A stretch of 64,000 bases of DNA from Bacilli bacterium (GCA_017938725.1 JAGBAW010000026.1:9014-73013), one strand, 5' to 3'. Counted from the first letter of the stretch, positions 11,497 to 60,610 are shown. Notes: generated by a model from the letters alone, not told the origin. Made by a program: numbers and translations.

Positions 11497-12693
11497 ATGA
11501 AGAAAATTTTAAGATATTTAATATTACTATGTATAAGTTTATTTTGTCTTATAAATGTTAGGGCAGAAGGGATTCAAGATGTTTCATCAAATAATATTAT
11601 TCTTTTAAATCTAAACGATAACAAGGTAATTTATGAAAAAAATGCAGATGAAAGAGTTAATATTGCAAGTTTAACTAAGTTGATGACTATGATTGTTTCA
11701 ATAGAGAATATAAGTGATTTTAATGAAAAAATTTTAATTACTAGTGATATGATAGATAATCTTGCTTATGATTTGTCAAAAGTTGGTTTTAAGAGTGGTG
11801 AAGTTGTAACATATTATGATTTATTATATGGGACGCTTCTAAAATCTGGTGCAGATGCTACTGATATACTAGCTATAAGTATAAGTGAATCTGTAGAAGA
11901 ATTTGTAAAACTAATGAATGAGAAAGCACATGAACTTGGCATGACTAATACAAGTTTTGCCAATACAATTGGAATAGAGCAAGATAATCATTATTCAAGT
12001 GCCAGAGACATTTCGATTCTATTAAAATATGCTTTAAATAATAATATATTTAAAAAAATATTTACCACTGAGCACTACATTTCTACTAATAATAATCATG
12101 ATATGTGTGGACCATTAAAGTACCTAAAGGAATTAGGTATGGATTATGTAAAGGGCGCAAAGACAGGTTATACTGATATAGCAGGACTTTGCTTAGCTAG
12201 CATATCTAATTATAATAATGTAGATTACTTATTAGTAACAATAGGCGCTGATTATAAAAATAGAAAACAACATTTTGAAGATACAAAAACCATATATCAA
12301 TATTATTTTAATAATTATGAATATAAAAAAATATTATCAAAAAATGATGTCTTAATTAAATTAAAAACAATATATGACGATGAATATGAAGTATTAAGTG
12401 ATAAAGATGTGTATGCATATTTAAATAAAAATATTTCATCAAATGATTTAACATATGGATTTGATGGGAAAACACTACTTAACAAAACTATTAAAAAAAA
12501 TAATTATATAGGTAAATATTATATTGAATACAATAACGAGATACTATATAGTAAAAATATAAAATCACCAGTTAGTGTATCAATGAGTTTATCATATTTT
12601 CTTAAACATAATATTTTAATTTTAGGGTTAATATTATTGACATTTATCCTATTTATAATACTTATGAATAAAAAAAGAAATAGCAAGAAATAA
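11497..12693 (+). CDS. D-alanyl-D-alanine carboxypeptidase (S11, PBP5-type) with a C-terminal membrane anchor
   Basis: Signal peptide, an ASLTKLMT SxxK motif and a C-terminal TM segment. Confidence 0.85.
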   Translation: MKKILRYLILLCISLFCLINVRAEGIQDVSSNNIILLNLNDNKVIYEKNADERVNIASLTKLMTMIVSIENISDFNEKILITSDMIDNLAYDLSKVGFKSGEVVTYYDLLYGTLLKSGADATDILAISISESVEEFVKLMNEKAHELGMTNTSFANTIGIEQDNHYSSARDISILLKYALNNNIFKKIFTTEHYISTNNNHDMCGPLKYLKELGMDYVKGAKTGYTDIAGLCLASISNYNNVDYLLVTIGADYKNRKQHFEDTKTIYQYYFNNYEYKKILSKNDVLIKLKTIYDDEYEVLSDKDVYAYLNKNISSNDLTYGFDGKTLLNKTIKKNNYIGKYYIEYNNEILYSKNIKSPVSVSMSLSYFLKHNILILGLILLTFILFIILMNKKRNSKK

Positions 12694-26010: not shown

Positions 26011-26709
26011 ATGAATAAACTAAAAATAATAATATTATTCTGTATAATAACACTTCTTTCTGGGTGTTCTGTGCAATATAATTTAAAAATTAATGAGGAT
26101 AATACAATTAATGAAAGTGTTGTAGCAACGGAAAAGACAAGGAGAATGGAATCATATACAAGATTAAAGGATAGACAAGCAGTTATGTATTTATATAATA
26201 TGTTTAAAAGAAAAAATGAAAATATTAATATAAATTATATAAACGAAGATACTAATACAATTGCCACTGCATTTACATCCCATAATGATATTAATGATTA
26301 TGCTAATAAGTTTAAAAGCGATGTGTTTGAAAGCATAAATATTGAGAAAAATGGTGGTGTAATTACTTTTACGGCAAATCAGAGTAAATTATTGGGCGAA
26401 AATTCAGGATATACGTTAGTATATGATGATATTACTATTAATATAGAAATCCCATACGAGGTAACTTATAATAATGCAGATAGTAATTCAGAAAGTGTTT
26501 ATACTTGGAATATAGGAAAAAATAATAACCTGAAGACAATAAAATTCTCGTATAAAGAGGGCTCTATAAAGGAAAAAATTAATGTTAAAATAAATGATAA
26601 AGTATATAATATAAATTATGGTTTAATAGCTATTGGTTCACTAATAACCATAATATTACTTATTGTAATATTTGTTTATATAAAGAATAAAAAGAATAAT
26701 ATTGTTTAG
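26011..26709 (+). CDS. Putative lipoprotein with a C-terminal TM
   Basis: Lipobox LLSGCS and a C-terminal hydrophobic helix. Confidence 0.5.
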   Translation: MNKLKIIILFCIITLLSGCSVQYNLKINEDNTINESVVATEKTRRMESYTRLKDRQAVMYLYNMFKRKNENININYINEDTNTIATAFTSHNDINDYANKFKSDVFESINIEKNGGVITFTANQSKLLGENSGYTLVYDDITINIEIPYEVTYNNADSNSESVYTWNIGKNNNLKTIKFSYKEGSIKEKINVKINDKVYNINYGLIAIGSLITIILLIVIFVYIKNKKNNIV

Positions 26710-38689: not shown

Positions 38690-38879
38690 TAATGAACATC
38701 AAGATTTTCATAAAGGTCTTTCCTTAAATTTTTAAGACTACTACGCAAATTAAAAATTTCAATAATATTATCAATTATAGTATTTGATAATATATATTCA
38801 TTATTATTTGAATATGATGTATTAAATTTGATATTCGTTTATTATTTAAATTTTTCTTATTTTTTCGTATCCAAGGATT

Positions 38880-39040: not shown

Positions 39041-39188
39041 CCAAAATATTTTAGTATTTATTATAATACAAAATATGAAAAGGCAAATGATTTTTATTAA
39101 TTATTTTTCTTTGGGCTAATTACTGACATATATCAAAATTTGTTGTATAATATAACTAGCATAATTATTTTGAAAAGAGGTGCCTATT

Positions 39189-39632
39189 ATGAAAGTTATA
39201 TTTTTAAAAGATGTAAGAGGTCAAGGGAAAAAAGACGAAATAAAAGAAGTTAAAGATGGTTATGCAGAAAACTATTTAATAAAAAATGGCTATGCAATAA
39301 AATATACAAATAGAAGTGGAGAAATTTTAAATAATCAAATTTTTACAAGAAAAAAGGAAGAAGAAGAGCTAATAAAAGAATGTGAAAAAATAAAAAAGGA
39401 ACTAGAAAGAATTGAAGTAGTATTTAAAGTAAAAACAGGTAAGGAAGATAAAGTATTTGGTACTATTTCAAGTAAACAAATATCAGAGGAATTAAATAAA
39501 AAAGGTTATAGTATAGATAAGAAAAAGATTATTATAAATAATCAAATTAATACTTTAGGCATAACAATAGTAGATGTAGTTTTACATTCTAAGGTAATTT
39601 GTAAATTAAAAATAAAGTTAATTAAGGAGTAG
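39189..39632 (+). CDS. rplI: 50S ribosomal protein L9
   Basis: [18 protein letters not shown]. Confidence 0.9.
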
Positions 39633-39635
39633 TAT

Positions 39636-40976
39636 ATGGATAAAAGAAATATGCCATACAGTTTAGAAGCTGAACAATCGGTATTAGGATCAGCTTTTTT
39701 ATCTAAGTATGCGCTTCAAAAATTATGTGATGAACTATCTAGAGACGATTTTTATTTAGAATCGCATATGAAAATATATGATGTTTTATCTGAACTTAAT
39801 GAAGAGGGAAAACCTATAGATATAACTATAGTTACTGATAAATTAGAGAAAAATAAAACATTGTCTAGCATAGGGAATATAGAATATTTATTAGAGGTTA
39901 TTAATTCAGTACCAAGTGCATCAAATATTGATTATTATATAAATATAGTACATGAAAAAGCATTACTTAGAAGATTAATTAGTGTTACTAACGATATAGC
40001 AGGAGAGGCTTATTTAGAAAATGGTAATGTTAATGATATATTAGATGGCGCAGAGGCAAAAATATTAAATGTTGTTAAAACAAGAAAATCATCAGAGTTT
40101 CATAAAATTCAAGATGTTGTTTTTAAAGCGCAAGAAAACCTAGAAAAATTATGTAATCAAAAAGGTGAAATTACAGGACTTGCGACTGGTTTTTATGAAA
40201 TAGATAAATTAACTAGTGGACTACACGAAAATGAATTTATAATAATTGCAGCAAGACCTGCGATGGGTAAAACAGCATTTGCACTTAATATTGCGACTAA
40301 TATTGCTAAGACAACAAATAAAGCAGTTGCCTTATTTAACCTTGAAATGAACGCTGAACAATTAGTTACTCGTATGTTTTCATCTCTAGCACAAGTGGAA
40401 GGTACTAAACTTAGAACAGGAAAACTCGATAATAATGATTGGGCCAAATTAAGTGAAGGGATAAGTCAGCTTGCTGATACTAATATATATATTGATGATA
40501 CACCTGGTATTACAATTGGAGATATAAGAAGTAAATGTAGAAGACTTGAAGCATCAAAAGAAGGACTTGGAATAGTTATAATAGATTACTTACAACTTAT
40601 TTCAGGTAGTAACAAATATGCTGGAAATAGGCAACAAGAAGTATCAGAAATATCAAGAGGTCTTAAAATGATGGCTTTGGAACTAGGCGTTCCTGTAATT
40701 GCACTTGCACAGTTATCTCGTGCTGTTGAGGGAAGAGATGATAAAAGACCACTTATGAGTGATTTAAGGGAATCAGGATCTATTGAACAAGATGCAGATA
40801 TAGTAGCATTCCTTTACAGAGATGATTATTATAATAAAGAGGCAAGAATGGAAGGTAATATAAGCATTAGTGAATTTATAGTAGCTAAACATCGTAATGG
40901 CCCAACTGCTACTATAGAACTTTTATTTAAGAAAAATACTAGTACTTTTGCAAATTATAGTAAAGAAGAAGTATAG
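39636..40976 (+). CDS. dnaB: Replicative DNA helicase (DnaB type)
   Basis: Walker A ARPAMGKTAF, and the arginine-finger region SQLSRAVE. Confidence 0.95.
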   Translation: MDKRNMPYSLEAEQSVLGSAFLSKYALQKLCDELSRDDFYLESHMKIYDVLSELNEEGKPIDITIVTDKLEKNKTLSSIGNIEYLLEVINSVPSASNIDYYINIVHEKALLRRLISVTNDIAGEAYLENGNVNDILDGAEAKILNVVKTRKSSEFHKIQDVVFKAQENLEKLCNQKGEITGLATGFYEIDKLTSGLHENEFIIIAARPAMGKTAFALNIATNIAKTTNKAVALFNLEMNAEQLVTRMFSSLAQVEGTKLRTGKLDNNDWAKLSEGISQLADTNIYIDDTPGITIGDIRSKCRRLEASKEGLGIVIIDYLQLISGSNKYAGNRQQEVSEISRGLKMMALELGVPVIALAQLSRAVEGRDDKRPLMSDLRESGSIEQDADIVAFLYRDDYYNKEARMEGNISISEFIVAKHRNGPTATIELLFKKNTSTFANYSKEEV

Positions 40977-40987
40977 GAGGTAACTTT

Positions 40988-42484
40988 GTGGATAATTTTA
41001 AAAAATATATTCCAATTATAATTTCTTTGATAATGTCTTTTATTATAATTGCTATTATAGGATTTACCAGTACTCAAGATAGTAAGATAAAAGAAGTTTA
41101 TAATGTATATTTAGATGGTAAATTACTTGGTTCTATCAATTCAAAAAAATCACTTGAAAAATATATAGACAAAGAACAAAAAGAGTTAAAAGAGGAATTT
41201 AAAGTAGATAAAGTATATATACCTAATGGAATAGATATTGAAAAATGTTTAACACATGATACAAAAATATTATCTGAAAAACAAATATATGAAAAAATAA
41301 AAGAAGAAAAAAGTTTTACCATAAAGGGATATGTAATTAGTATAAAAGACTCTGATAATAATGAAATAAAAGTGAATGTTTTAGATAAAAACATATTTGA
41401 TCAGGCAGTTAATAAAGTACTTACAGTATTTGTAGATTCTAAGGATGTTGATAATTATAAAAATGAAACTCAAAAAGAAATAGAAACAACTGGTAGTATA
41501 ATAGAAAATATTTATATAAACGAAAAAATAACTATAACTGAAAGTTATATATCTACAGATGAGATAATATTTACAGATGTAACTACTTTAACTAAATATC
41601 TATTATTTGGTTCCTTAGATAAAGATGAGGAATATGTTGTTAAGCCAGGTGACACTATTGAAACAGTAGCATTTAATAATAAACTTGGCATTGAAGAATT
41701 TTTAATAGTTAATCCGGAATTTACTAGTAGTAATAATTTACTTAGTGTTGGTCAGAAAGTAAGCATAGCACTTATTGATCCCGTATTTAGTATTGTTGTT
41801 GAAAAACATATTGTTGAAGATTTAGATAAACCTTTTGAAACTGTTGAAAAAGAGGATTCAAGTATGTATGTCGGTACTACGAAAGTTGAGACAGAAGGAA
41901 CAAACGGCGTTCAAAGAGTAACTGAAAAGGTTAAATATATTAATGGAGATCCTCAGCCCGCTATTATTACTAATGTAAGTACCATAACTGAGCCAATAAA
42001 TAAAGTCGTATTAAAGGGTACAAAAACGTATTCAAGTGGTTATAATGGTGGTGGAACTCCTGCGGTAGTATCTGGTAATTATGGATGGCCCACTATATAT
42101 CCTTACATTGTAACTAGTGAGTTTAAATATCGTTGGGGTAGGTTACATGCTGGACTTGATATTTCTGGATGTGGATTTGGTTCTCCAATATACTCAATTG
42201 CCAGTGGGACAGTGACTGACGTTGTAAATAATTGTCCAGGGCAAGGATATTATGGAAGCAGCTGTGGTGGAGGATATGGTAATGTTGTTTATATCAATCA
42301 TGGTAATGGTATGATTGTAAAATATGCACACTTGAATTCGGTAACAGTAAGAGTCGGACAAACAATTTCAAAAGGGCAAGTGGTTGGTACTATGGGGAAT
42401 AGTGGATCATCAACTGGTACGCATTTACACTTTGAAGTAAGAATAAATGGTACAGCAATTAATCCAAGGACGTTATATCGATGA
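40988..42484 (+). CDS. Membrane-anchored LysM plus M23 metallopeptidase
   Basis: N-terminal TM, a LysM domain (VVKPGDTIETVAFNN) and M23 motifs HAGLDIS and GSSTGTHLHFEV. Confidence 0.8.
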   Translation: MDNFKKYIPIIISLIMSFIIIAIIGFTSTQDSKIKEVYNVYLDGKLLGSINSKKSLEKYIDKEQKELKEEFKVDKVYIPNGIDIEKCLTHDTKILSEKQIYEKIKEEKSFTIKGYVISIKDSDNNEIKVNVLDKNIFDQAVNKVLTVFVDSKDVDNYKNETQKEIETTGSIIENIYINEKITITESYISTDEIIFTDVTTLTKYLLFGSLDKDEEYVVKPGDTIETVAFNNKLGIEEFLIVNPEFTSSNNLLSVGQKVSIALIDPVFSIVVEKHIVEDLDKPFETVEKEDSSMYVGTTKVETEGTNGVQRVTEKVKYINGDPQPAIITNVSTITEPINKVVLKGTKTYSSGYNGGGTPAVVSGNYGWPTIYPYIVTSEFKYRWGRLHAGLDISGCGFGSPIYSIASGTVTDVVNNCPGQGYYGSSCGGGYGNVVYINHGNGMIVKYAHLNSVTVRVGQTISKGQVVGTMGNSGSSTGTHLHFEVRINGTAINPRTLYR

Positions 42485-43248
42485 GGGTATGTGTATTATC
42501 AAGTGGTAGTAAAGGAAATTCATGTTTAATTACTACGGAGAAAATAAAATTATTAATTGATATAGGAACAACTTGTGCTTATGTTGAAAAAACATTAAAC
42601 GGATTAAATATCAATCCTACTGAAATAACTCATATATTAATAACACACAACCACGCGGATCATATAAAAGGATTAAAGATATTTATAAAAAAATATAATC
42701 CTATAGTTCATGTTACTGATAAACTGTTAAATGTTCTTAAGGAAGAAGTAGGAAACTTTAAATATGAATTATATGAAGATAGAAAGACGATTATTGAAGA
42801 TTTAGAAATAAATATTATAAAAACATCACATGATGCTGAAGACTCAGTTGGATTCATAATAAAACAAAGTTCTTCATCGATGGTGTATATAACAGATACA
42901 GGATATATAAATAGTAAATATTTTGAAGTACTATCTAATAATAATTTATATATAATGGAAAGCAATCATGATATAAAAATGCTTATGGAGGGACCATATC
43001 CATATTATCTGCAGCAAAGGGTAAGAGGGGATAAAGGACACCTATCAAATAAGCAAGCGAGTGATTATTTATGTAAATTCATAGGCAAAGACACAAAGAA
43101 AATTATATTCGCACATATCAGTGAACATAATAATACAGAAGAAAAAGTACTTGAGACATTCAATGAAACTTTGGAAAAAAATAATATGAATTTTGATAAT
43201 GTAACAATTGCAAGGCAAAATGAATGTACGGAGTTAATAGAAGTATGA
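42481..43248 (+). CDS. MBL-fold metallo-hydrolase (YycJ/WalJ-like)
   Basis: HNHADH motif. Confidence 0.75.
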   Translation: MRVCVLSSGSKGNSCLITTEKIKLLIDIGTTCAYVEKTLNGLNINPTEITHILITHNHADHIKGLKIFIKKYNPIVHVTDKLLNVLKEEVGNFKYELYEDRKTIIEDLEINIIKTSHDAEDSVGFIIKQSSSSMVYITDTGYINSKYFEVLSNNNLYIMESNHDIKMLMEGPYPYYLQQRVRGDKGHLSNKQASDYLCKFIGKDTKKIIFAHISEHNNTEEKVLETFNETLEKNNMNFDNVTIARQNECTELIEV

Positions 43249-43697
43249 TAAAGATAATATGTGTTGGGAAGATAAAAGAAAAATATTTGGTAGATGCTAT
43301 TAAGGAATATTTAAAAAGACTTAGTAAATACACTAAAGTAAATATTATTGAGGTTCCAGATGAAAATTTTGATATTAAAAAAACCTTAATAAAAGAAAAA
43401 GATAGTATTTTAAAATATATCGATGAAAAAGATTATATTATTACACTTGATATAGAAGGAAAAAACATATCAAGCATAGAACTAGCTGAAAAAATAAAAA
43501 ATATTCAAATAAATTATAGCGATATTTGCTTTATAATTGGAGGTTCTTATGGACTTCATAAAGATATAAAGGAAAAAAGTAACTATAGTTTGTCATTTTC
43601 CAAAATGACTTTTCCACATCAATTATTTAGAGTAATGCTTTTAGAACAAATATATAGAACATATAAAATAAACAATAATGAATCATATCATAAGTAA
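43245..43697 (+). CDS. rlmH: 23S rRNA (pseudouridine1915-N3)-methyltransferase RlmH
   Basis: MIKIICVGKIKEKYL, a SPOUT fold, and a GGSYG-like knot. Confidence 0.85.
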   Translation: MIKIICVGKIKEKYLVDAIKEYLKRLSKYTKVNIIEVPDENFDIKKTLIKEKDSILKYIDEKDYIITLDIEGKNISSIELAEKIKNIQINYSDICFIIGGSYGLHKDIKEKSNYSLSFSKMTFPHQLFRVMLLEQIYRTYKINNNESYHK

Positions 43698-45404: not shown

Positions 45405-45767
45405 TTACAATCCTTTTAAACTGAAATCAGGACTATAATTTATATTCTCTTCAAATTCTACATAGTTTAAATAAATCATCAAAATCATATACCATTTACC
45501 TGTTGATGGGTCACTTATTATTAAATGATCCCTTCCAGCTTGCTCTACGATACCTGTAAATATTTTATCTTTCCATTCTATAGAATCTGGAAATGATACA
45601 TAGAATTTACCATATTTTCCTTTATTTAGTCTTAAAATATTTTCCACATAAGACTGTTCTAAAGGAAATTCAGTAGTACTTACTGTAGGTGCATATTGTT
45701 GATTAGGGTATCCTGCATTAGTTTGATAATTTACATTTGGATAATAGCCATTATTCATATTATTCAT
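45405..45767 (-). CDS. Spore coat protein GerQ-like
   Basis: Q/N/Y-rich N-terminus and NILRLNKGK...WKDKIFTGIVEQAGRDHLIISDPSTGKWYMI, the GerQ pattern. Confidence 0.5.
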   Translation of the reverse strand: MNNMNNGYYPNVNYQTNAGYPNQQYAPTVSTTEFPLEQSYVENILRLNKGKYGKFYVSFPDSIEWKDKIFTGIVEQAGRDHLIISDPSTGKWYMILMIYLNYVEFEENINYSPDFSLKGL

Positions 45768-48940: not shown

Positions 48941-49171
48941 GTGATAATTTTGTCTTTACGTTTTTTTATCTTTTTATTTGGATTTGGTCTTACTATAATC
49001 GGACTAAGTTATATTATTATTTATTTAAATTTACTTTCAATTGGGTATAATTTTTTTGAATATGTAAATTTTATTATTAGACGTATAGAATGTCTAAATG
49101 TATTTTTTGGTATTACATTAATGATTGCAAGTGGTTTTGTAAAAGGAGGAAAAAATGAATTATATTTATGA
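48941..49171 (+). CDS. Small membrane protein
   Basis: 76 aa with two TM helices. Confidence 0.3.
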   Translation: MIILSLRFFIFLFGFGLTIIGLSYIIIYLNLLSIGYNFFEYVNFIIRRIECLNVFFGITLMIASGFVKGGKNELYL

Positions 49172-49820
49172 TATAACATTAAATTTTAATAAGAATAATC
49201 TATATGAGTTTTATGAATGGAAAGAGGAAGACGATCCCGAATTTGTTTTAAAAATACCTATGTATAAGGTTGATTTAAAAACATTTCTCGATTTAAAAGG
49301 TAATGATATAATTATTGATAAAAAAATACTAGAATCACTTGAAGATAAAACAGAAGTATATACACCTAGTACTATAAGTATAATAAGGTATGCATGTGTA
49401 TTCGCATGCGATGAAAGTACTATTGCAATTGAGTTTGATTCAGATGGGAATAGTTATATGAAAAGTGCATTAAGTATAGAGGAGGAAATTGAGGTCATTG
49501 AATCTTCAAAACTAATTAAATATTCAATATTAGATTATAAGATAAAAAATAAAAATAAAATTAAAAATAAATTTATAACTAGGAATGAAGAGGAAACAGA
49601 AAAATATTTAATTAAAAAATTAGAAAGTATGAAAAAAAATGGTGAGGAATCAAAATTAAAATACATTTTTTATGAGATATATAATGAGAAATTAACAGAT
49701 ATAGATAAAATATATAGTAAATTAATTAATATTGCTAAGAATGATGATAACAAATTTTGCAGGCTAAAAGGGATTTTATATTTAATGGAAAACAAAAAAA
49801 TTATGAGTAATAATTCATAA
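49155..49820 (+). CDS. Hypothetical protein
   Basis: ORF of 221 aa with a GGAGGA ribosome-binding site; overlaps the upstream small ORF. Confidence 0.45.
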   Translation: MNYIYDITLNFNKNNLYEFYEWKEEDDPEFVLKIPMYKVDLKTFLDLKGNDIIIDKKILESLEDKTEVYTPSTISIIRYACVFACDESTIAIEFDSDGNSYMKSALSIEEEIEVIESSKLIKYSILDYKIKNKNKIKNKFITRNEEETEKYLIKKLESMKKNGEESKLKYIFYEIYNEKLTDIDKIYSKLINIAKNDDNKFCRLKGILYLMENKKIMSNNS

Positions 49821-49898: not shown

Positions 49899-52800
49899 AT
49901 GAATAAGATAAAAGAATTTATTTTAAAATATAAAATTATTTTATTAATAGTTTTATTAGTAATAGCCTCTTTTGGTATATACTTCTTTGCTTCTGCGGAA
50001 GAGGATATATATGCGAATCAAATAGAGGTTACTAATGCTATTAGTAAAATAGTAGATGGCACGCCAAATGAAGATGGTAGTTTTGACCCTAATGATGATG
50101 CAGGTAATGATTCATCAAATAGTAATAAGATAGTTAGAAATTTTGATTCAATTACCTATGATGTATCATATAATCTCAGGTATAAAGAAAGTACTAACTT
50201 GAGCGCAGAAGATCAAAAATTGGATAACATTAGAAATGCTATAATTGATGTACTACTTCCTACATCTATAAGTGCAAATGTTTCTTATGGTGGGAATTCT
50301 GATATAAATCAGGGCCCAAGTAGTGCTAAAGAGGTTACTATAAATGGTATTAATTATAATTATTATATGTTTGAAATTAATGGTATAGATATCTCCTCAC
50401 CAAGGACAAGTAGTATTGTAGTATCAAATATTAATTCAAAAAATAATACTAAAATAGAACCTATTATAAGAGTAAGGGAAAGTACAGATCAATCAGCTGT
50501 TGCAATAGATAATAATACGGATATAAATAATATATCAAAATTAAATGTTGAACCTGTTATTGTATCTGCCAAAGAAAATTATGGCATTAAATTATATCCA
50601 GGGGTTCTAAAAAAGGATTATGATAACGCTACTATTCCTGTTGGTGTTGTTATTTATTTACCAAAGGATCCAAACAAGGGAATTAGAGGAATCGAGGTTC
50701 CAAGTAGTGTAGAATTTAATATGACTATAAATGATACAACAAATAGTTCTTCTATTATCGGTACTCCTACAATTAGTAATTACGATAGTAGCTTATATAC
50801 AATAGATGGACTTCCATCAGCTGATGCTACTAATAATGGTAATGCTGGAATTATAGTAAATGGCAATACATTCACATTAAACTTTACGGAATTAAAGTTC
50901 AGCAATAATGCTGTTTCAATAAATGATGTTGATGTTAACTATTTATCATCAAAGATGGTGCTATTTAATGTTCAAAGGACAACACCAAAAGCAAATATAA
51001 CCTATTCAATAGGTGCAACAAATGGTGTAATAACAAGTAATAATATAGAAATGAATTATAATTATGATCCTTATATTGGTGATTATAAAACAAAAGTTGA
51101 GTTTGTTAATAAAAATGGCTCAATACCAAATCCAGGGGAGGCAACATATTACTTTAATGAAGAATTTGATATAAAAAATACAATTCAATATGGATTTAAT
51201 GGAACTTACTCAGGTGATAATCTTAATGGCTTTGTAAATTATTTAAAAATAGATGAAGATGCAATTGAACTATTAGAGTCTGATAATATTAGTGATGAAA
51301 CAAAGGATTATATAGTTAAGTTCTCTGGTACAGATAGTCCAACTAAGGATAACTATTCAGTTAAGTATGGTGTTGGAAAGTGGGATTCATCATATTTTGA
51401 AATTAGTGGTACATGCCATATATCAAGTAAAGAGGATTTAATGAATTATTATGGTAGTTCATGCGTAAATGATAAAAATATTGTATGGTATGATACTATC
51501 GAAGAAGCAAAGAAAAATGGAAGTATAATACTTATACAATTTGATTATTCTGGTGATTTTTCCGCAGGAACTAGTGCTACATTAACTTTTAAAGCAAGGG
51601 CAAAAAATAATAGTTCAAACGTGGGGAGCACATTTGCTGTAATATCAAAAGGTATTACTACTTGGAATGATAATACATATTATTTATCTGAAACGCCAAT
51701 GCCTTTACTTGATTCTAGTACAGGGGACACAAGTATGTACTACAAAAAGACAGAATATGATGCTAATCACAATATTATAGCGAACACTAATAATCCATCG
51801 GGTAGTTATGGTAATACATTACTAGTTTCTGCATTTAAAGTTGGTTTTGATAGTATTATTACTAAAAATAGTTATGATAGTGAAAAAAGTACAATATATT
51901 CTGGACTAGATGATCCAGTTGAAATAATTTTAACGCCTACACTTTCAACTTATGTGGGGAATAAGATCGAGTCTGTTTCTATAAATGTTGTTTTACCACA
52001 AGGATTAGAATTATATATTAAAAAGGGAGATAAGATTCCTACTATTGATAATGCTGCTCCATCATATAAGACTCTTATGTATAGTTTCACAAGTGATGAA
52101 ATTGCAAAAAATAATGGTAAAATACCAAATCTCATACTTCATGCATATATATCGGTAGGGACTCCTGATAATACAATAGCGGATATAACGGCCGCAATAG
52201 ATGCAGTGGTTAGTAATGGTGATAAAAAATATTCTTCAATTACGTCAATAGATAAAAGAACAATAGGTGCAAGATTAACTTTAAGAAATACAAATAAGAT
52301 TAATGCACTTGGCACAATTAATCAAACTTATATTGATAAAAATGGAGAATTTACATATAAAATGAGGGCATCAAATTTATCAAGTGATGCAGCAACATTA
52401 GAATTATTAAATATACTACCATATTCAGGTGATAGTATTGGGGATGGTTCCAAATTTTCTGGTACATTGTCAGTAGCAATACAAGATGTTTTACCTGAAG
52501 GATATAAGATATATTATACTAGTGATGCGGCAAAGACAATACTTAAAAATGAAATTGATTCATCAGAGATAAAATGGATTGAATGGTCTGATTATAATAC
52601 ATATCGTAAAGATATAACAGCAATAAAAATAGTGTCAACATCACAGATCGCCTCTGGAGGATATTTTGTAAATGATACTGGTTTAACATTAAAAATAAAA
52701 ACTGATGGGAACAAAGAAACTGATATTTATTATAATAATTTCTATATATTAGAAAGAAATGCAAAATTATGTGAAGATGGTTCATCAGATTTACAAACAC

Positions 52801-53861
52801 AGGGCGTAGAATGCGATCCAAATTTAAAAGGAACACTTATATACCCATCTAATACTTCAAATGTATCTGTTTATAATAGAACTATTTCAGGAAAAGTATT
52901 TGAAGATGAAGATTACAATGGATTATATGAAGATGAAAAAAAGCTAAGTAATCAAATAGTTGAACTATATAGGTTAAACAAAGAGGGAGAATTTGACCCT
53001 AATAATCCATTAGATGTAATTAGTGATGCAGATGAAAAAGTATCCAAATCAGATGTAACAACAGATAATAATGGGACATATTTATTTAATTCATTATCAT
53101 CGGGTAGTTATTATGTAAAAGTAACATTTGATTGTGACAAATATTCCGTTACAGATAAAAATAAAACAACAATAGATACCTTAGTTGATACTTCTTCAAT
53201 AGATTCAGACTTTATTGCTATACCTACTGAAAATTCTAATACATGTAGCGCAGTATCAAATATTATTACTTTAAATAATGATAATATAAATGCAAGAAAT
53301 ATTGATTTAGGCTTGAGAATAAAACAAAACTTCGATATAAAAATAAGTAAATATATTACAAACGTTACAATAAACTCTAATAGAGGGACACAATCAATTG
53401 ACTATGATAAGCAAACTAAGGTAAAAATTGACGTAAAAAATCTAAAAAATACGTCATTTAGGGTAACATATAATTTTGAAATAGAAAATACTAAGTATTT
53501 TCCTGGAACTATTGGTACTATAATGGAATCTATACCTGAGGGTATGACATTTGATCCTTCACTTTCAGAAAATGACGGATGGTATGAAACATCAAATGGT
53601 ACATTATATTATGAATATTTATCAAATACATTAATAATGCCTGGAGAAAAATATCATATAAAGATAGTATTAGATCTAGTAACAGATGAAGGTGGAGATT
53701 TTGTAAATATTGTATTGGCTGATGATTTAAGAGTAATGGGATCAGCATCAGATATTATTACTGATACAGAAATTGAAATACTTCCAGATGGAGAAACTGA
53801 AAACCCGGGTGAAGATTCAAATGGAGATACAAATGAAGATGAAGAAGGTGATTTTGAATGA
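49899..53861 (+). CDS. Giant membrane-anchored/secreted surface protein with an SdrD-B/CnaB-type domain
   Basis: N-terminal TM/signal. SGKVFEDEDYNG...NNGTYLFNSLSSGSYYVKV CnaB-like fold. Acidic C-terminus and no sorting signal. Its stop overlaps the next start (ATGA). Confidence 0.7.
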   Translation: MNKIKEFILKYKIILLIVLLVIASFGIYFFASAEEDIYANQIEVTNAISKIVDGTPNEDGSFDPNDDAGNDSSNSNKIVRNFDSITYDVSYNLRYKESTNLSAEDQKLDNIRNAIIDVLLPTSISANVSYGGNSDINQGPSSAKEVTINGINYNYYMFEINGIDISSPRTSSIVVSNINSKNNTKIEPIIRVRESTDQSAVAIDNNTDINNISKLNVEPVIVSAKENYGIKLYPGVLKKDYDNATIPVGVVIYLPKDPNKGIRGIEVPSSVEFNMTINDTTNSSSIIGTPTISNYDSSLYTIDGLPSADATNNGNAGIIVNGNTFTLNFTELKFSNNAVSINDVDVNYLSSKMVLFNVQRTTPKANITYSIGATNGVITSNNIEMNYNYDPYIGDYKTKVEFVNKNGSIPNPGEATYYFNEEFDIKNTIQYGFNGTYSGDNLNGFVNYLKIDEDAIELLESDNISDETKDYIVKFSGTDSPTKDNYSVKYGVGKWDSSYFEISGTCHISSKEDLMNYYGSSCVNDKNIVWYDTIEEAKKNGSIILIQFDYSGDFSAGTSATLTFKARAKNNSSNVGSTFAVISKGITTWNDNTYYLSETPMPLLDSSTGDTSMYYKKTEYDANHNIIANTNNPSGSYGNTLLVSAFKVGFDSIITKNSYDSEKSTIYSGLDDPVEIILTPTLSTYVGNKIESVSINVVLPQGLELYIKKGDKIPTIDNAAPSYKTLMYSFTSDEIAKNNGKIPNLILHAYISVGTPDNTIADITAAIDAVVSNGDKKYSSITSIDKRTIGARLTLRNTNKINALGTINQTYIDKNGEFTYKMRASNLSSDAATLELLNILPYSGDSIGDGSKFSGTLSVAIQDVLPEGYKIYYTSDAAKTILKNEIDSSEIKWIEWSDYNTYRKDITAIKIVSTSQIASGGYFVNDTGLTLKIKTDGNKETDIYYNNFYILERNAKLCEDGSSDLQTQGVECDPNLKGTLIYPSNTSNVSVYNRTISGKVFEDEDYNGLYEDEKKLSNQIVELYRLNKEGEFDPNNPLDVISDADEKVSKSDVTTDNNGTYLFNSLSSGSYYVKVTFDCDKYSVTDKNKTTIDTLVDTSSIDSDFIAIPTENSNTCSAVSNIITLNNDNINARNIDLGLRIKQNFDIKISKYITNVTINSNRGTQSIDYDKQTKVKIDVKNLKNTSFRVTYNFEIENTKYFPGTIGTIMESIPEGMTFDPSLSENDGWYETSNGTLYYEYLSNTLIMPGEKYHIKIVLDLVTDEGGDFVNIVLADDLRVMGSASDIITDTEIEILPDGETENPGEDSNGDTNEDEEGDFE

Positions 53862-56530
53862 AAATAAAAAAATTAAGTAAAATATTTATTATAATAACTT
53901 TCATTTTCCTTCTTCTACCTTTTAAAAATGTAGAAGCTGCAGATGCCACATATCATTATTATTGGCTTAAAACTGCAAATTATATAGACGAGAGCTATAT
54001 AGGAAAAAGTTATACCATTAATGGGGGAACCATTCATATAGAAAAAAATTTTTTGCTTCATGAAGTTAATCAAGGAAATAGTTGGTATCATGGATATTGT
54101 TTACATGCAGGGAAAGTTGTCTTGGGTAATCAACCATTAAAATTATATGAAGGTTTTACGCAATTAAAAAATTCTTCTAACAAGTTATTATCAAAGAGCC
54201 AGCAGATATTACTTAAAAATATAGTTGCTAGTGGATATCAAAATGGGAATAGAAAAGTAAATGGTAGTATACTTGATTCCAGTGCAAGGCATGATGTAGG
54301 TAGACAACAATATAGTTGTAAATCTAAAACCGTATGTGAAAAAATTATAGCCACACAACTATTAGTATGGGAAGCAATGGAAGGGGTAAGAACAAATTAT
54401 AACCCTGATAGTTTAAAAGAAAGTCATAAATCATATTATAACTTTGTAATAAATAATTCTGGAATATATAAACAATATAAGGCTATACTAGATGACGCTA
54501 AAAATTTAACTACCGATGGGAAAATACCTGCGGCATTTGGCAAAACATATACTTTACACTGGATTGATTCTTTAGGAAAATATTCATATTCCTCTTGGAA
54601 TAAAAGTAGTAATAAATATACTAGAGATAGTTTGCCTATAGGTAGTTATAGATATAAAACAGATACAAAGGGTAAAATTTCTCTTAGTATGAATGGAAAT
54701 AATCTTTATATTGATTCATCTGGAGCATTTACTAAAGCAGATAGTTACGATTTGAACTTTTATTTAACAAAGGGTAGTACATTGGATGTTAATAATGAAT
54801 TTAGGTGGTATAAATTTACCAGTGGGTCAGGCTATCAAGATATTTTAATGGGGGATCATAAAGTTGAATTTATGCAATCATTAAAAGTAAAAACAGAAAA
54901 AGGTAAATTTTACATAGCTAAATATTCAAATGATTCTGGCACTATAAAGAAATTAACAGGTGCAGAATTTGAAGTTTATAAATGTAAAAAGAAAGGTAGT
55001 TGTGATAAAAAATCTACTGGAAAAATAGATTTGGGAAGTAATTATTATGGATATTTAGAGATAAATAAGTCAGGTCTATATAGAGTAGTTGAGTCAAAAG
55101 CACCATCTGGATATAATAAAATAAGTGAAGTATATGTAAATTTAAAAATTACAGATGGTGGAAAGGTAGAAATTATATCTGTTGATAGGGGATTGAACTC
55201 TAATGAGAGTATTAAAATTACAAAGGGTGAATCAACAGGCCGTATATATTTATCTATATATAATACTAAGAAATCTTTAGAAATTAAAAAAATTGATGGT
55301 GTAACTGGAAATGCAATAAAAGGTGCAACATTCCAAATAAAAGATTCTAAAGGTAATATATTGAAATTTAATAGAACAAAAGAGGGATACTATGATTACT
55401 CAGCATCTGGCAAAATAGATAAAATAGTAGATAGTAATATGAGTTCATATCATATATCTTTATTACCTGTTGGTTCATATACATTAATAGAAACTGCAGT
55501 GCCTTCTCCATATGTATTGCCAGCTAAACAAACAGATAGAGAAACTTATTTTAAAGTTACTTCTACAAATAGTAATCCATATAGTTATTGTACTTTAAGC
55601 AGTCTTACTAGCAAAAGTTGTATAGGAAATACTAATAATGTTGCAATTAAAGTAAAAAATTATACAACAAAGGTAGTCGTAAATAAAACAGGTAACGAGG
55701 GTGCCAAGTTATCTGGTGTAAAATTTAAACTTTATGATAAATCAAAATCAAAAGAAATAATTTTAAGTTTAAATAATACTGGTTCATATAATTATGTTCA
55801 AAATCAAACAGGAACTACAATTGATTTAGTAACAAACGAAAATGGACAAATAATAATCAATAATTTACCTGAAGGGACATATTACTTAAAAGAAATAGAG
55901 GCAGCATTAGGATATGAAATAGATGAGTCAGTACAGTGGACAGAGATTAAAGTATCTATAAATACTAAATTAAGTAATATATCTCAAATAGGAAAAACAG
56001 AAGTACAAATATCAAATGCTAAAGGTACATTTAATTTCTATAAAATAGATGAAGATGGAAACTATTTAAATTCTGGTAAATTTAAATTACAAGTTTATAA
56101 TGATAATAATGGAAAATATGAAGATGCAGCAGTTAACTACGATAACGAAAAAAATGTATATTCAATTGATAAAACGGGCAAAAGTGATATTTACACATTT
56201 ACTCCAACAAATGGGGTTGTAACATTTGTTAATGTTGATAAAGCTGGTAAGTATAGAATTGTTGAAATTGAAGCACCTGAAGGATTTGTGTTACCATCAT
56301 CTAATGATGCATTTGTTGAATTTTCTGTAAATGGTAATGGCTATATAAATGGTGATTTAACAATGATTAATAAAAAAGTTACTAAAGGTGATGGGAAACA
56401 AGCACAAGCAGAACTTATTATAAATATTCAAACAGGTCAGCAAAGAATTCGATATTTTGTTATTATTGCAGTATTACTTGTAATAATTACAGCACTATTC
56501 ATACTAAAAAATAAATTTAATAAAAAATAG
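53858..56530 (+). CDS. Thioester-domain (TQXA-like) adhesin with four Cna-B/SpaA-type domains and a sortase-B-like sorting signal
   Basis: Signal peptide. Candidate thioester Cys in YHGYCLHAG, with ATQLLVWEA. Four GxxFxVY...G.Y.L.E...P.GY modules. C-terminal NIQTG, then a hydrophobic helix and a KNKFNKK tail. Confidence 0.75.
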   Translation: MKIKKLSKIFIIITFIFLLLPFKNVEAADATYHYYWLKTANYIDESYIGKSYTINGGTIHIEKNFLLHEVNQGNSWYHGYCLHAGKVVLGNQPLKLYEGFTQLKNSSNKLLSKSQQILLKNIVASGYQNGNRKVNGSILDSSARHDVGRQQYSCKSKTVCEKIIATQLLVWEAMEGVRTNYNPDSLKESHKSYYNFVINNSGIYKQYKAILDDAKNLTTDGKIPAAFGKTYTLHWIDSLGKYSYSSWNKSSNKYTRDSLPIGSYRYKTDTKGKISLSMNGNNLYIDSSGAFTKADSYDLNFYLTKGSTLDVNNEFRWYKFTSGSGYQDILMGDHKVEFMQSLKVKTEKGKFYIAKYSNDSGTIKKLTGAEFEVYKCKKKGSCDKKSTGKIDLGSNYYGYLEINKSGLYRVVESKAPSGYNKISEVYVNLKITDGGKVEIISVDRGLNSNESIKITKGESTGRIYLSIYNTKKSLEIKKIDGVTGNAIKGATFQIKDSKGNILKFNRTKEGYYDYSASGKIDKIVDSNMSSYHISLLPVGSYTLIETAVPSPYVLPAKQTDRETYFKVTSTNSNPYSYCTLSSLTSKSCIGNTNNVAIKVKNYTTKVVVNKTGNEGAKLSGVKFKLYDKSKSKEIILSLNNTGSYNYVQNQTGTTIDLVTNENGQIIINNLPEGTYYLKEIEAALGYEIDESVQWTEIKVSINTKLSNISQIGKTEVQISNAKGTFNFYKIDEDGNYLNSGKFKLQVYNDNNGKYEDAAVNYDNEKNVYSIDKTGKSDIYTFTPTNGVVTFVNVDKAGKYRIVEIEAPEGFVLPSSNDAFVEFSVNGNGYINGDLTMINKKVTKGDGKQAQAELIINIQTGQQRIRYFVIIAVLLVIITALFILKNKFNKK

Positions 56531-56615
56531 GAATTATTAATATAATTTCTTTTTTTTATATTTATATGTATAAAAAAAATGATTTTTACCAAATTATTTA
56601 TTGAAGGAGGAAATT

Positions 56616-57281
56616 ATGAAAAAATTTATTGTAGCATTAATGGTTATTTTCTTATCAGCATGTACTTTAGGTGCAGCAGTTACACCAAAACAAAAGGTAT
56701 CTGAATTTTTAGATAAATATAAAAATCAAGATTCAAATATTATTTCTCAATTAGAAGAAACAATCAAAAATGATATTACTAACACTGATTATAGAGATAG
56801 ATATAAAACTTTAATGACTAATCAGTATAAGAATATGGAATATGATATTAAAGAAGAAATAATTGAAGAAGATAATGCTGTAGTAGAGGTAGAAATAACA
56901 GTATATGATTATGCATCTGCTATTAGAAATTCAAATGAATATTTAAATGAACACTCAGATGAATTTTCTAAGGATAAAACAACTGCTAATATTGCTGAAG
57001 ATATAAAAGATACAGCCGAAGATATAAAAGATAATGTAGAAGAAAAAGCAAATGAAGCAAAAGATAACTTAGAATCTGATAATAATACTAATAAAACTGA
57101 TACTACTGGTAATTATGATGAAGATAAGTTTATGGATTATAAATTAAAACAAATGGAAAATGTAACTGATAAAGTAAAATATACTATTGAATTTACTTTA
57201 ACTAAAGTTAATGGAGAATGGCAACTTGATGCATTAAGTAATAGTGATATAGAAAAATTACATGGTATATACACAGGATAA
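56616..57281 (+). CDS. Putative lipoprotein
   Basis: Lipobox LSACT and an acidic repeat (AEDIKD). Confidence 0.5.
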   Translation: MKKFIVALMVIFLSACTLGAAVTPKQKVSEFLDKYKNQDSNIISQLEETIKNDITNTDYRDRYKTLMTNQYKNMEYDIKEEIIEEDNAVVEVEITVYDYASAIRNSNEYLNEHSDEFSKDKTTANIAEDIKDTAEDIKDNVEEKANEAKDNLESDNNTNKTDTTGNYDEDKFMDYKLKQMENVTDKVKYTIEFTLTKVNGEWQLDALSNSDIEKLHGIYTG

Positions 57282-59269: not shown

Positions 59270-60610
59270 TTACTTTGAAAGTGTGGTGCCTGGATAATAA
59301 TGAGATAATATACTTTGGTAGTTATATCCAGCATTTGCCATGCCATTCGCACCATATTGACTCATACCAACACCATGACCATATCCTCTTGTTGTAATAC
59401 TTGCAGTACTATCATTAATTGAAATATCAAAATCTGCACTTCTTAAACCTAATGTTTCTCTTACTTGTTTCCCAGTAAAAGTATAACCAGCAATTGTTAT
59501 TTCTTTAATATTATTTCCGTCTGTATAATTAATAACCTCAATAATTGAATCAGATGATAAATTAATGCCAAGTTTAGATGAGATTGTATTTAAATCCATT
59601 GTTGTTGTCCTTAAATAACTTGATGCAAATTTATCATAATCGGATGTAACACTAACTAAATAAGGATAATAATTACCAAATACATCAAGTGATGATTCCG
59701 TCTTACCATTATTGGTAGAATGATATAAAGCTTCAATATAATTTCCATTATATGCTAGATATTGTCCTTTTGTATATTCCACAGCATTTTTTATTTTATT
59801 ATAATAAGTATTATAAGATGATCCCCACTTACTTTGCATCTGCCCAGCATCAATATAAGCTTGCGTACTAACTGTGTCGGTTAGGGTCTTACCAGTACTT
59901 TTTGCTTTTAACGCATAAGTTCTTGCTAGAATACTTTGAGCTTTCAAGGCCTCCGAATTAAAGGAAGCAGGCATTTCAGCAGCAACTACACCTATTACGT
60001 ATTCTTCTAAATCAATTGTAATAACAGAACCATTACTTCTATGAATAGTAACAGTAGTTCCTGAAATTATTTGATTTGATTGCATACTTGAACTACCTGA
60101 CGTAATTGTACTGTTATTACTTGTAGAAACTTGAGTATTATTGGTTTTAGTTGAACTATTATTTGGTTGTGATTGATTTGAAATAGTAATTTTTTGCGAA
60201 CTTTGATTATTAATTTTAGTTTTTACATTATTAGTACTAGTTGTACTATTAGATTCTTGGCTTTTATTTTCACTTACATTTTCGTTTGAGTTTCCAATTT
60301 GTATTTTATTTTCTTCAGTTTTATTATCTTCCTTAGCAATATACGTTATAGTATTTTTAAAATTTGGAACATATGTAATATTTTCTTTTGTTATACCACT
60401 ATTTATATTAGTAAGTATTATACTTCCAATAATAACTCCACTACAAGTAAGAACTATTTTTCCTTTTTTTAAATCAATTTTCATTTTATTTATATAATCT
60501 TTTATTTCATCAACAATTTTTTTACCTTTTTTAAAAGAACCTCCAAATTCATAATTAACATCTATTTCTAAATATAATATATCATCTTTAATAATATGGC
60601 ATCTAAACAT
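59270..60610 (-). CDS. SpoIID/LytB domain protein
   Basis: N-terminal TM, an S/T/N-rich linker, and a C-terminal SpoIID domain (YHSTNNGKTE, GHGVGMSQYGA). Confidence 0.75.
   Translation of the reverse strand: MFRCHIIKDDILYLEIDVNYEFGGSFKKGKKIVDEIKDYINKMKIDLKKGKIVLTCSGVIIGSIILTNINSGITKENITYVPNFKNTITYIAKEDNKTEENKIQIGNSNENVSENKSQESNSTTSTNNVKTKINNQSSQKITISNQSQPNNSSTKTNNTQVSTSNNSTITSGSSSMQSNQIISGTTVTIHRSNGSVITIDLEEYVIGVVAAEMPASFNSEALKAQSILARTYALKAKSTGKTLTDTVSTQAYIDAGQMQSKWGSSYNTYYNKIKNAVEYTKGQYLAYNGNYIEALYHSTNNGKTESSLDVFGNYYPYLVSVTSDYDKFASSYLRTTTMDLNTISSKLGINLSSDSIIEVINYTDGNNIKEITIAGYTFTGKQVRETLGLRSADFDISINDSTASITTRGYGHGVGMSQYGANGMANAGYNYQSILSHYYPGTTLSK

What the first reader, a model, noticed from the sequence alone, without database searches (positions are those of the whole stretch)
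53858..56530. Thioester-domain/Cna-B adhesin with an NIQTG sortase-B-type signal but no sortase nearby
The N-terminal domain has a Cys (YHGYCLHAG) and a TQ motif (ATQLLVWEA), like the internal thioester domains of Gram-positive adhesins. Four isopeptide-type Cna-B modules follow.

The C-terminus has the tripartite sorting architecture, but the motif is NIQTG (NPQTN-like, class-B sortase type) rather than LPXTG. No sortase gene lies within 10 kb on either side.
Basis: partly seen in the sequence, partly recalled or inferred. Interest (0 to 1): 0.55.

Follow-up and report, generated by a model that had tools for sequence, protein, structure and literature searches.

The report
Thioester adhesin with unusual anchor signal
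This gene encodes a surface adhesin of a known kind from an uncultured gut bacterium. Its tail carries a conserved, proline-free anchoring signal that many giant surface proteins of the same lineages share and that has not been described.

Summary

- **Architecture.** It has a signal peptide, an N-terminal thioester domain (TED), four CnaB/SpaA isopeptide modules, an NIQTG motif, a membrane helix and a KNKFNKK tail.
- **Bond partner.** The partner of Cys81 is probably the invariant Gln327 (YQDIL). It is not the Gln of the ATQLLVWE motif.
- **The signal.** "NIQTG" is one instance of a longer proline-free signal, A-E-Φ-Φ-Φ-x-I-x-T-G…Y + helix + basic tail.
  - The signal is predicted to be unstructured.
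  - It ends at least 185 protein clusters (700-4800 aa, TED-bearing or not) from uncultured low-GC Bacilli, probably order RF39.
  - N and Q are not conserved, so the resemblance to NPQTN (sortase B) is coincidental.
- **Sortase.** No sortase lies in the 64-kb window or in 26 related loci. That is normal for a housekeeping sortase, and I could not check the rest of the genome.
- **Partner gene.** The gene is always translationally coupled to an upstream gene for a 1300-1500-aa secreted protein.

Verdict: an ordinary TIE-type adhesin with an undescribed variant anchoring signal whose processing enzyme is unknown.

The parts
49899..53861 (+). Upstream partner gene: a 1320-aa secreted protein with a signal peptide, one SdrD_B-like domain, an acidic C-terminus and no anchor. 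Its stop overlaps the adhesin's start by 4 nt (ATGA).
   Evidence: The same pairing is seen in L001, L003, L018, L019, L021 and L024, and with a 171-aa gene between the two in L025. The partners of L001, L003, L018 and L019 match it at 26-44% identity over 600-1400 aa.
53858..53938 (+). Sec signal peptide (residues 1-27; ...FKNVEA|AD).
   Evidence: Sequence. The family has a conserved hydrophobic core and an NVSA-type end. The segment is a predicted helix with low pLDDT.
53939..54895 (+). Class II thioester domain (residues about 28-346): a beta-barrel/three-helix upper lobe plus a seven-strand beta-sandwich insert (about 230-320).
54098..54100 (+). Codon of Cys81 (Y-C-L-H), the predicted thioester cysteine.
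   Evidence: Invariant in 24 homologues. It sits at the end of strand 75-81. It fits the [YFL]CΦζ motif (PMC4450167).
54353..54373 (+). T166-E172, the TQxxΦW helix motif (TQLLVWE). It lies next to the bond but does not form it.
   Evidence: helix 157-174; PMC4450167 and PMC6194298.
54836..54838 (+). Codon of Gln327 (Y-Q-D-I-L), the predicted thioester glutamine.
   Evidence: It is the only invariant Gln after the beta-sandwich. It fits Φ-Q-ζ-Φ-Φ and lies in a beta context. This is an inference: no atomic distance could be read from the model.
54902..56377 (+). Four CnaB/SpaA isopeptide modules (residues 349-470, 473-602, 605-721, 725-840). The invariant Lys/Asn/Glu triads are K355-N469-E412, K478-N601-E545, K610-N720-E679 and K729-N838-E803.
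   Evidence: Pfam SpaA in four stretches. Invariant columns. In the model each Lys lies in the first strand and each Asn in or next to the last strand of its module. PDB pilin matches include 4oq1 and 3phs.
56408..56455 (+). Conserved linear signal A851-Y866: AELIINIQTGQQRIRY. Family logo: A-E-[LF]-[IV]-[VI]-x-I-x-T-G-[QRK]-x-Φ-Φ-x-Y.
   Evidence: The segment is predicted coil with pLDDT below 50.
56456..56530 (+). Hydrophobic membrane segment F867-L883, basic tail K884-K890 and the stop codon.
   Evidence: predicted helix 867-887.

Best explanation
**What it is.** A TIE-type (thioester, isopeptide) fibrillar adhesin of an uncultured low-GC gut bacterium, probably of the order RF39.

**How it most likely works**
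1. *Export (inferred).* Sec exports the protein and the signal peptide is removed.
2. *Warhead (inferred).* The class II TED closes a Cys81-Gln327 thioester on its own. The bond then reacts with an amine on a host, mucus or bacterial ligand and binds it covalently.
3. *Stalk (inferred).* Four CnaB modules lock themselves with Lys-Asn isopeptide bonds into a rigid stalk.
4. *Anchoring (inferred).* The tail carries a lineage-wide, proline-free sorting signal, A-E-Φ-Φ-Φ-x-I-x-T-G…Y + membrane helix + basic tail.
   - The helix and basic tail hold the protein in the membrane.
   - Most likely (about 50-55%), an unlinked housekeeping sortase-type transpeptidase then cuts between T859 and G860 and links the protein to peptidoglycan.

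**Partner gene.** The gene is co-expressed with an upstream gene for a large secreted partner, which probably forms part of the same surface structure.

**What is shown and what is not.** Shown here: domain identity, fold class, the invariant residues, the breadth of the signal, the conserved gene pairing and the absence of a linked sortase. Bond formation, cleavage, the enzyme and the ligand are all inferred.
For: **TED and stalk**
- TED: Pfam; AF2 model pLDDT 89.2.
- C81 and Q327 are invariant, as are four K/N/E triads.

**The signal**
- A profile of the last 55 residues finds 185 clusters (at 50% identity) with E <= 1e-3. In all but one of the 150 listed the best match ends within about ten residues of the C-terminus. 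The proteins are 700-4800 aa, with or without a TED.
- The logo shows 16 conserved positions with T-G fixed.
- Several signal-bearing proteins occur on one contig (L025, L026), as expected of a general sorting signal.
- The motif sits in a predicted unstructured linker (pLDDT below 50). Its conservation therefore points to recognition by another protein.

**Resemblance to sortase signals**
- The tails score 15.3-19.8 bits on TIGR01167 LPXTG_anchor (cutoff 15.9), aligned from X-T-G onward.
- One related tail (P0083, L016) has a canonical SPQTG at the same place before the same VIKYGLII helix.
- RF39 is not among the related orders reported to lack srtA/B (PMC10868615). L011, a relative, is from 'Clostridium sp. 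CAG:433', and the GTDB family CAG-433 is placed in RF39 (PMC8035907).

**Walled host.** The window encodes DacA/DacB-type carboxypeptidases, UppP, M23 hydrolases and an amidase.
Against: - No sortase was found anywhere in the 64-kb window or in 26 related loci of 9-28 kb each. None could be shown to exist in the genome.
- The motif lacks the Pro found in most sortase signals.
- Conservation extends 8 residues upstream of T-G, longer than the five-residue motif that defines known sortase signals.
- The nearest described motif, NVQTG (C. difficile CbpA), is not cleaved by C. difficile SrtB in two independent studies (PMC4155245, PMC4371152).
- The window tail scores just below the LPXTG_anchor cutoff (15.3 against 15.9).
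- All signal-bearing proteins also share the last CnaB module, so part of the shared tail could reflect common descent rather than selection by a sorting enzyme.
- Plain C-terminal helix + KK anchors without any motif occur elsewhere in the window, at 11497..12693 and 26011..26709.
Confidence: 0.6

Rival explanations
1. **Plain membrane anchor.** The C-terminal helix stays in the membrane as a type I anchor and nothing cuts at T-G. The conserved juxtamembrane motif is instead a binding site for peptidoglycan, for a membrane partner or for an assembly factor.
For: - No sortase in the window or in any related locus.
- The motif lacks Pro and is much longer than a sortase pentapeptide.
- NVQTG is not a SrtB substrate in C. 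difficile (PMC4155245, PMC4371152).
- Motif-less C-terminal helix + KK anchors are common in this window.
- Related orders of these reduced Bacilli have lost srtA/B (PMC10868615).
Against: - T-G is present in all but one of the tails examined (P0146, whose match is internal), always at a short, near-constant distance before a conserved Tyr, the helix and a basic tail. That is the layout of sortase signals.
- The tails match the LPXTG_anchor model near threshold.
- A related tail has SPQTG in the same position.
Confidence: 0.27
2. **Two-component fibre.** The adhesin and the co-translated upstream partner are joined into one surface fibre. Either the amphipathic AELIINI strand docks into the partner (donor-strand style), or the partner is captured covalently by the thioester or by a transpeptidase.
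For: - The partner and the signal-bearing protein are adjacent in seven independent contexts, with a small gene between them in one (L025), and their coding sequences overlap in several.
- The partners are homologous across distant cassettes.
- The partner has a signal peptide but no anchor of its own.
- The motif has a strand-like alternating pattern and is unstructured in the monomer model.
Against: - Giant proteins with the same signal are not next to a partner, and on L025 and L026 two signal-bearing proteins were seen for each partner within the stretches read. That fits a general signal better than one-to-one docking.
- No complex model could be computed.
- No pilin motif or linked pilin sortase was found.
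Confidence: 0.1
3. **Sortase B substrate.** This is the first reader's reading: an NPQTN-type signal handled by a class B sortase encoded elsewhere in the genome.
For: - The window copy reads N-I-Q-T-G, which shares N, Q and T with NPQTN.
- C. difficile's single sortase is class B and anchors TED/CnaB proteins through (S/P)PxTG (PMC5569036).
Against: - N and Q are not conserved in the family, Pro is absent, and the last residue is G rather than N.
- No NCBIfam sortase-B signal model appears among the matches.
- Class B sortases of the Isd type and the pilin type are usually encoded next to their substrates (my own knowledge), and none is here.
Confidence: 0.05

Closest known systems
Class II TIE proteins: S. 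aureus SaTIE, B. anthracis BaTIE (BA5258), E. faecium EfmTIE86 (PDB 6fx6, 6fwv, 6fwy; PMC6194298)
   Same: - An N-terminal class II TED with a beta-sandwich insert, followed by three to five CnaB isopeptide domains and a C-terminal anchor.
- The same Cys, TQxxΦW and Φ-Q-ζ-Φ-Φ motifs.
   Different: - Sequence identity is only 15-17%, and no PDB match is found by sequence.
- The Cys-Gln spacing is 246 residues, against 171-204.
- BaTIE ends in a canonical LPATG motif. Here the signal is the proline-free AEΦΦΦxIxTG.
C. difficile CbpA (CD3145), a collagen-binding adhesin with an NVQTG motif
   Same: A surface adhesin of a low-GC Firmicute whose C-terminal motif is N-(V/I)-Q-T-G, without Pro.
   Different: - NVQTG was tested and is not cleaved by the organism's only sortase (PMC4155245, PMC4371152, PMC5569036).
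C. difficile SrtB substrates with (S/P)PxTG, e.g. CD3246 (predicted thioester) and CD0386/CD3392
   Same: - TED or CnaB adhesins anchored by a non-LPXTG x-x-x-T-G signal through an unlinked sortase.
- A related tail here (P0083) carries SPQTG before the same type of helix.
   Different: Those motifs keep the Pro, and their cleavage has been shown experimentally. This one has Ile and is untested.
S. pyogenes pilus tip adhesin Cpa (PDB 2xi9)
   Different: - Cpa has class I TEDs.
- It is encoded in an operon with pilin subunits, a pilin sortase and SipA.
- It ends in a VPPTG-type motif (my own knowledge).
- None of these operon partners is present here.

Membership tests
Thioester domain (TED) of TIE proteins | Bond-forming Cys in a [YFL]-C-Φ-ζ motif on a beta strand | tested here: met
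   Y80-C81-L82-H83. Y, C and L are invariant in 24 sequences. The motif is at the end of strand 75-81 in the model.
Thioester domain (TED) of TIE proteins | Bond-forming Gln in a Φ-Q-ζ-Φ-Φ motif on a beta strand at the end of the domain | tested here: met
   Y326-Q327-D-I-L. Q327 is invariant and lies in a beta context after the sandwich. Its side-chain distance to Cys81 could not be read from the model.
Thioester domain (TED) of TIE proteins | TED fold | tested here: met
Thioester domain (TED) of TIE proteins | Class II: a roughly 75-residue seven-strand beta-sandwich inserted before the Gln strand | tested here: met
   Seven strands between residues 230 and 320. 216 residues align to the class II SaTIE-TED, against 143-157 for class I TEDs.
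Thioester domain (TED) of TIE proteins | The thioester bond actually forms (-17 Da, reactive with amines) | not testable with these tools
   Needs mass spectrometry of recombinant protein.
CnaB/SpaA isopeptide domain | Prealbumin-like fold with Lys on the first strand, Asn on the last strand and a catalytic Glu/Asp | tested here: met
   Pfam SpaA in four stretches, E 3.8e-39. Four invariant K/N/E triads sit on or next to the first and last strands of each module. Bond formation itself was not tested.
Sortase substrate (LPXTG-type cell wall sorting signal) | N-terminal signal peptide; C-terminal hydrophobic segment and basic tail | tested here: met
Sortase substrate (LPXTG-type cell wall sorting signal) | Pentapeptide with Pro at position 2 and a T-G (or T-A/N) scissile pair | tested here: not met
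   T-G is present, but position 2 is Ile in 131 of 145 tails and Pro in only 4.
Sortase substrate (LPXTG-type cell wall sorting signal) | Passes the curated anchor models | tested here: inconclusive
   TIGR01167: 15.3 bits against a cutoff of 15.9 for the window tail, and 14.4-19.8 for five relatives and the SPQTG tail, of which four pass; two other tails gave no match. Pfam Gram_pos_anchor: 14.3 bits against 20.
Sortase substrate (LPXTG-type cell wall sorting signal) | A sortase encoded in the same genome | not testable with these tools
   None in the 64-kb window or in 26 related loci. RF39 is not listed among the orders lacking srtA/B (PMC10868615), which is indirect evidence only.
Sortase B signal (NPQTN / NPKTG type) | N-P-(Q/K)-(T/S)-(N/G/S) with conserved Asn and Pro; sortase B usually adjacent | tested here: not met
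   Asn in only 64 of 145 tails; Pro in only 4 of 145. No sortase-B signal model of NCBIfam appears among the matches at E <= 10. No adjacent sortase.

The most novel reading that the evidence does not exclude
The A-E-Φ-Φ-Φ-x-I-x-T-G…Y + helix + KK tail is the recognition tag of a sorting or anchoring system that is not a conventional sortase pathway. It could be a new enzyme family, or strand-docking onto the co-encoded partner. Uncultured RF39-like gut Bacilli would use it to display their giant adhesins.
Probability: 0.2. Interest if true: 0.75.

Novelty: new variant of a known kind. Interest (0 to 1): 0.42.

Why it matters
RF39-like Bacilli are common, uncultured, small-genome members of human and animal gut communities. 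How they attach to hosts or to other cells is unknown.

This locus shows that they encode covalent-binding (thioester) adhesins and much larger SpaA-repeat proteins. All of these end in one conserved, undescribed, proline-free signal.

- If a sortase processes the signal, it widens the known range of sortase specificity and gives a simple rule for listing the surface proteome of these lineages.
- If no sortase processes it, the signal marks a new anchoring pathway.

The adhesin itself is an ordinary member of a well-studied family.

Tried and rejected
2. **PDB sequence-profile search** with the TED alignment gave no match at E <= 10.
3. **Word-indexed protein search** with the 55-residue tail profile returned only short fragments and missed the full-length family. 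It was uninformative on breadth, and the exhaustive HMMER search replaced it.
4. **A linked processing enzyme.**
   - The flanking 221-aa and 226-aa genes have no family match.
   - They are conserved only in the close lineage.
   - Other lineages carry small N-anchored proteins flanking their signal-bearing genes. The downstream type (L017/L018) shows no similarity to the window's lipoprotein (hhalign probability 0.4%), and none of these proteins looks enzymatic.
   - One Rce1-like/CPBP protease lies near one locus (L025). It does not recur elsewhere and I treated it as coincidence.
   - A weak phmmer match of SrtB to an Mbeg1-like protein in L024 (12 bits) was dismissed.
5. **Promoter and terminator scan.** Promoter-like sites were no more frequent than in shuffled sequence, and none of the five terminator-like sites lies on the strand of the genes; the scan says nothing about the operon.
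6. **Literature.** No paper mentions NISTG or NIQTG as a sorting motif. The supplement of PMC10868615 held no per-family sortase table.
7. **Sporulation link.** The cassette sits among sporulation and housekeeping genes (gerQ, spoIID, yabG, veg, spoVG). I considered a spore-surface role but have no evidence beyond position.


Full report
**1.

The window has an ATG-started ORF at 53858..56530 (+) of 890 aa. Its start overlaps by 4 nt the stop of a 1320-aa ORF at 49899..53861. G+C is about 27% throughout the window.

Pfam finds a thioester domain and four SpaA/CnaB-type stretches:
- TED PF08341 covers residues 80-215, at 29.9 bits against a cutoff of 22.
- SpaA PF17802 matches four times, E 3.8e-39.

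NCBI already names a protein of the same 90%-identity cluster, from a 'Bacilli bacterium' MAG, 'Cys-Gln thioester bond-forming surface protein'.

A search of 5.8 billion proteins gave about 25 full-length relatives of 842-920 aa at 36-44% identity. In their alignment the following are invariant:
- Y80-C81-L82;
- T166-Q167 with W171-E172;
- Q327;
- four Lys/Asn/Glu triads;
- most of the C-terminal motif.

**2.

An AF2 model of residues 28-351, built with 14 homologues, is confident: pLDDT 89.2 and pTM 0.83.

| Search with this domain | Result |
|---|---|
| Foldseek against the PDB (model) | nothing useful |
| PDB sequence-profile search (alignment) | nothing |

The model shows three core helices followed by seven strands between residues 230 and 320. 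This is the beta-sandwich insert that defines class II (PMC6194298).

The literature is explicit on the bond partner. The thioester Gln lies in a weak Φ-Q-ζ-Φ-Φ strand motif at the end of the domain. The Gln and Trp of the TQxxΦW helix sit beside the bond but are not needed for it (PMC4450167, PMC6194298).

Here the only invariant Gln after the sandwich is Q327, in Y-Q-D-I-L. I therefore predict a Cys81-Gln327 bond. This is an inference from motif, invariance and fold. The tools gave no coordinates, so I could not measure the distance.

**3. The stalk**

The full-length model (pLDDT 78.9) shows four beta-sandwich modules. In each, an invariant Lys lies on the first strand, an invariant Asn on or next to the last strand, and an invariant Glu in a Y-x-Φ-x-E-x-x-A-P-type box:

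| Module | Lys | Asn | Glu |
|---|---|---|---|
| 1 | K355 | N469 | E412 |
| 2 | K478 | N601 | E545 |
| 3 | K610 | N720 | E679 |
| 4 | K729 | N838 | E803 |

The modules match solved Gram-positive pilins by sequence, for example 4oq1, 3phs and 3kpt.

**4. The C-terminal signal is much more than NIQTG**

*Within the family.* The conserved stretch is AQAELIINI(S/Q)TGQxRI(R/H)Y, then about 17 hydrophobic residues and a KK tail. Most orthologues read NISTG.

*Breadth.* I searched a profile of the last 55 residues exhaustively against 1.84 billion cluster representatives.
- 185 clusters matched with E <= 1e-3. In all but one of the 150 listed the best match ends within about ten residues of the C-terminus.
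- The proteins are 700-4800 aa.
- Many of the 700-1300-aa ones have TED motifs. The proteins of about 1400 aa and more that I inspected have many SpaA repeats and a different N-terminus, although L025 carries 1379- and 2589-aa proteins with a Pfam TED_2 hit.

*Logo.* Aligning 145 distinct tails on T-G gives the logo below.

| Position | Residues (count of 145) |
|---|---|
| -8 | A (133) |
| -7 | E (128) |
| -6 | L or F |
| -5 | I or V |
| -4 | V or I |
| -3 | variable: N 64, T 35, S 18, G 15 |
| -2 | I (131); P in 4 |
| -1 | variable |
| 0, +1 | T, G |
| +2 | Q, R or K |
| +7 | Y (140) |

*Structure.* In the full-length model, residues 843-866 are coil with pLDDT below 50, lying between the last CnaB module and a helix at 867-887. 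The motif is a linear element in an unstructured juxtamembrane linker. Its strong conservation therefore implies recognition by another protein.

*One signal, many proteins.* Several signal-bearing proteins lie on single contigs (L025, L026). This is what a general sorting signal looks like.

*Curated models.* The tails match the generic LPXTG_anchor model near threshold. The window tail scores 15.3 bits and five other tails 14.4-19.8, against a cutoff of 15.9, aligned from X-T-G onward. No sortase-B signal model appears, and the Rumino_NPXTG and Firmicu-CTERM models score far below their cutoffs.

*A canonical motif in the same place.* One related tail (P0083) is the frameshifted end of an LRR/Flg_new surface protein in L016. 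It has a canonical SPQTG at the same place before the same VIKYGLII helix.

*Literature.* No paper in the library mentions NISTG or NIQTG as a sorting motif. The nearest described motif is NVQTG of C. difficile CbpA. Two groups found that C. difficile SrtB does not cleave it (PMC4155245, PMC4371152; summarised in PMC5569036).

**5. Sortase: none linked, and the genome could not be checked**

- Within the window, nearly all gene-sized ORFs were scanned against Pfam. There is no sortase, CPBP protease, rhomboid or exosortase.
- The neighbours are housekeeping and sporulation genes: uppP, trmL, rubrerythrin, dacB-like, a pseudouridine synthase, spoIID, gerQ, dnaB and L9.
- An unlinked sortase is the normal arrangement for housekeeping sortases (my own knowledge).

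*Lineage.* Relatives come from 'Clostridium sp. CAG:433', 'Tenericutes UMGS855' and many 'Bacilli bacterium' MAGs from rabbit, human, roe deer and rumen samples. The GTDB family CAG-433 belongs to the order RF39 (PMC8035907). A survey of these orders reports that srtA/B is missing from RFN20 and ML615J-28 but does not list RF39 as lacking it (PMC10868615). A sortase elsewhere in the genome is therefore plausible but not shown.

**6. A conserved two-gene module**

Six independent genomic contexts show the same arrangement. A gene for a 1300-1530-aa secreted protein with a signal peptide, an SdrD_B-like domain where Pfam hits are on record, and no anchor lies immediately upstream. The two coding sequences often overlap. 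In a seventh (L025) a 171-aa gene lies between the two.

| Locus | Flanking context |
|---|---|
| L001, L003 | window-like |
| L018 | next to murG |
| L019, L021 | between yabG-veg and spoVG |
| L024 | after rmuC |
| L025 | after a 171-aa gene that follows the partner; two signal-bearing TED_2 proteins and a sigma-70 gene follow |

The partners of L001, L003, L018 and L019 match the window's at 26-44% identity over 600-1400 aa; L017's matches only weakly. The partner has no PDB or NCBIfam match. Small flanking genes differ between lineages and show no homology to the window's.

I take the partner to be part of the same surface structure. I could not test how.

**7. Verdict**

The adhesin is a new member of a known kind, a class II TIE protein. 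The anchor signal is an undescribed variant: a 16-position, proline-free x-I-x-T-G signal, so far seen only in uncultured low-GC Bacilli.

| Reading of the anchor | My estimate |
|---|---|
| An unlinked sortase-type enzyme cuts at T-G | about 50-55% |
| Plain membrane anchoring with a binding motif | about 27% |
| Partner-docking fibre | about 10% |

Interest is moderate. It rests on the signal, not on the thioester domain.

Noticed in passing
window 49899-53861 (+): A 1320-aa secreted protein with one SdrD_B-like domain, about 1000 residues with no family match, and an acidic tail. It is translationally coupled to the adhesin (ATGA overlap). It is paired with a signal-bearing protein in every related lineage examined.
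   Followed up: partly
window 13502-19294 (+): A 1930-aa protein with a signal peptide and Listeria-Bacteroides repeats (Flg_new). It has no C-terminal anchor of any kind. No ORF of at least 100 codons in the 64-kb window carries an LPXTG motif.
   Followed up: partly
L016 7284-10261 (+): An LRR/Flg_new surface protein whose last 86 residues are called as a separate overlapping ORF, probably a frameshift. It ends in SPQTG plus the same VIKYGLII-type helix as the AELI...TG family. The contig has 22.9% G+C.
   Followed up: partly
L017, L018, L025, L026 (genes flanking the signal-bearing proteins): In other lineages most signal-bearing giant proteins are flanked by two small N-anchored proteins. 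One of 170-190 aa lies upstream and has a weak ChW-like match. One of 207-240 aa lies downstream and has a marginal BamE-like match. They are conserved among those lineages but absent from the window.
   Followed up: partly
L025 19107-20087 (+): An Rce1-like/CPBP intramembrane protease lies 1.3 kb downstream of a 2589-aa signal-bearing protein. It was seen at one locus only.
   Followed up: no
window 49155-49820 (+) and 56601-57281 (+): A 221-aa protein with no signal peptide and a 226-aa lipoprotein (LSAC lipobox) flank the two-gene module. Neither has a family match. Both are 60-76% identical across the close lineage, in the same positions.
   Followed up: partly
window 31288-32944, 37922-43697: A ParA-like gene (ATPase motif read from the sequence), then further on L9, DnaB and an RlmH-type SPOUT methyltransferase, suggest that the window lies near the replication origin. 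Cumulative GC skew rises across nearly the whole window.
   Followed up: no
window 45405-45767 (-), 59270-60610 (-); L003, L019, L021: The cassette repeatedly sits among sporulation genes: gerQ, spoIID, yunB and SASP in one set of loci, and yabG, veg, spoVG and yabP in another. This may only reflect a conserved core gene order.
   Followed up: no
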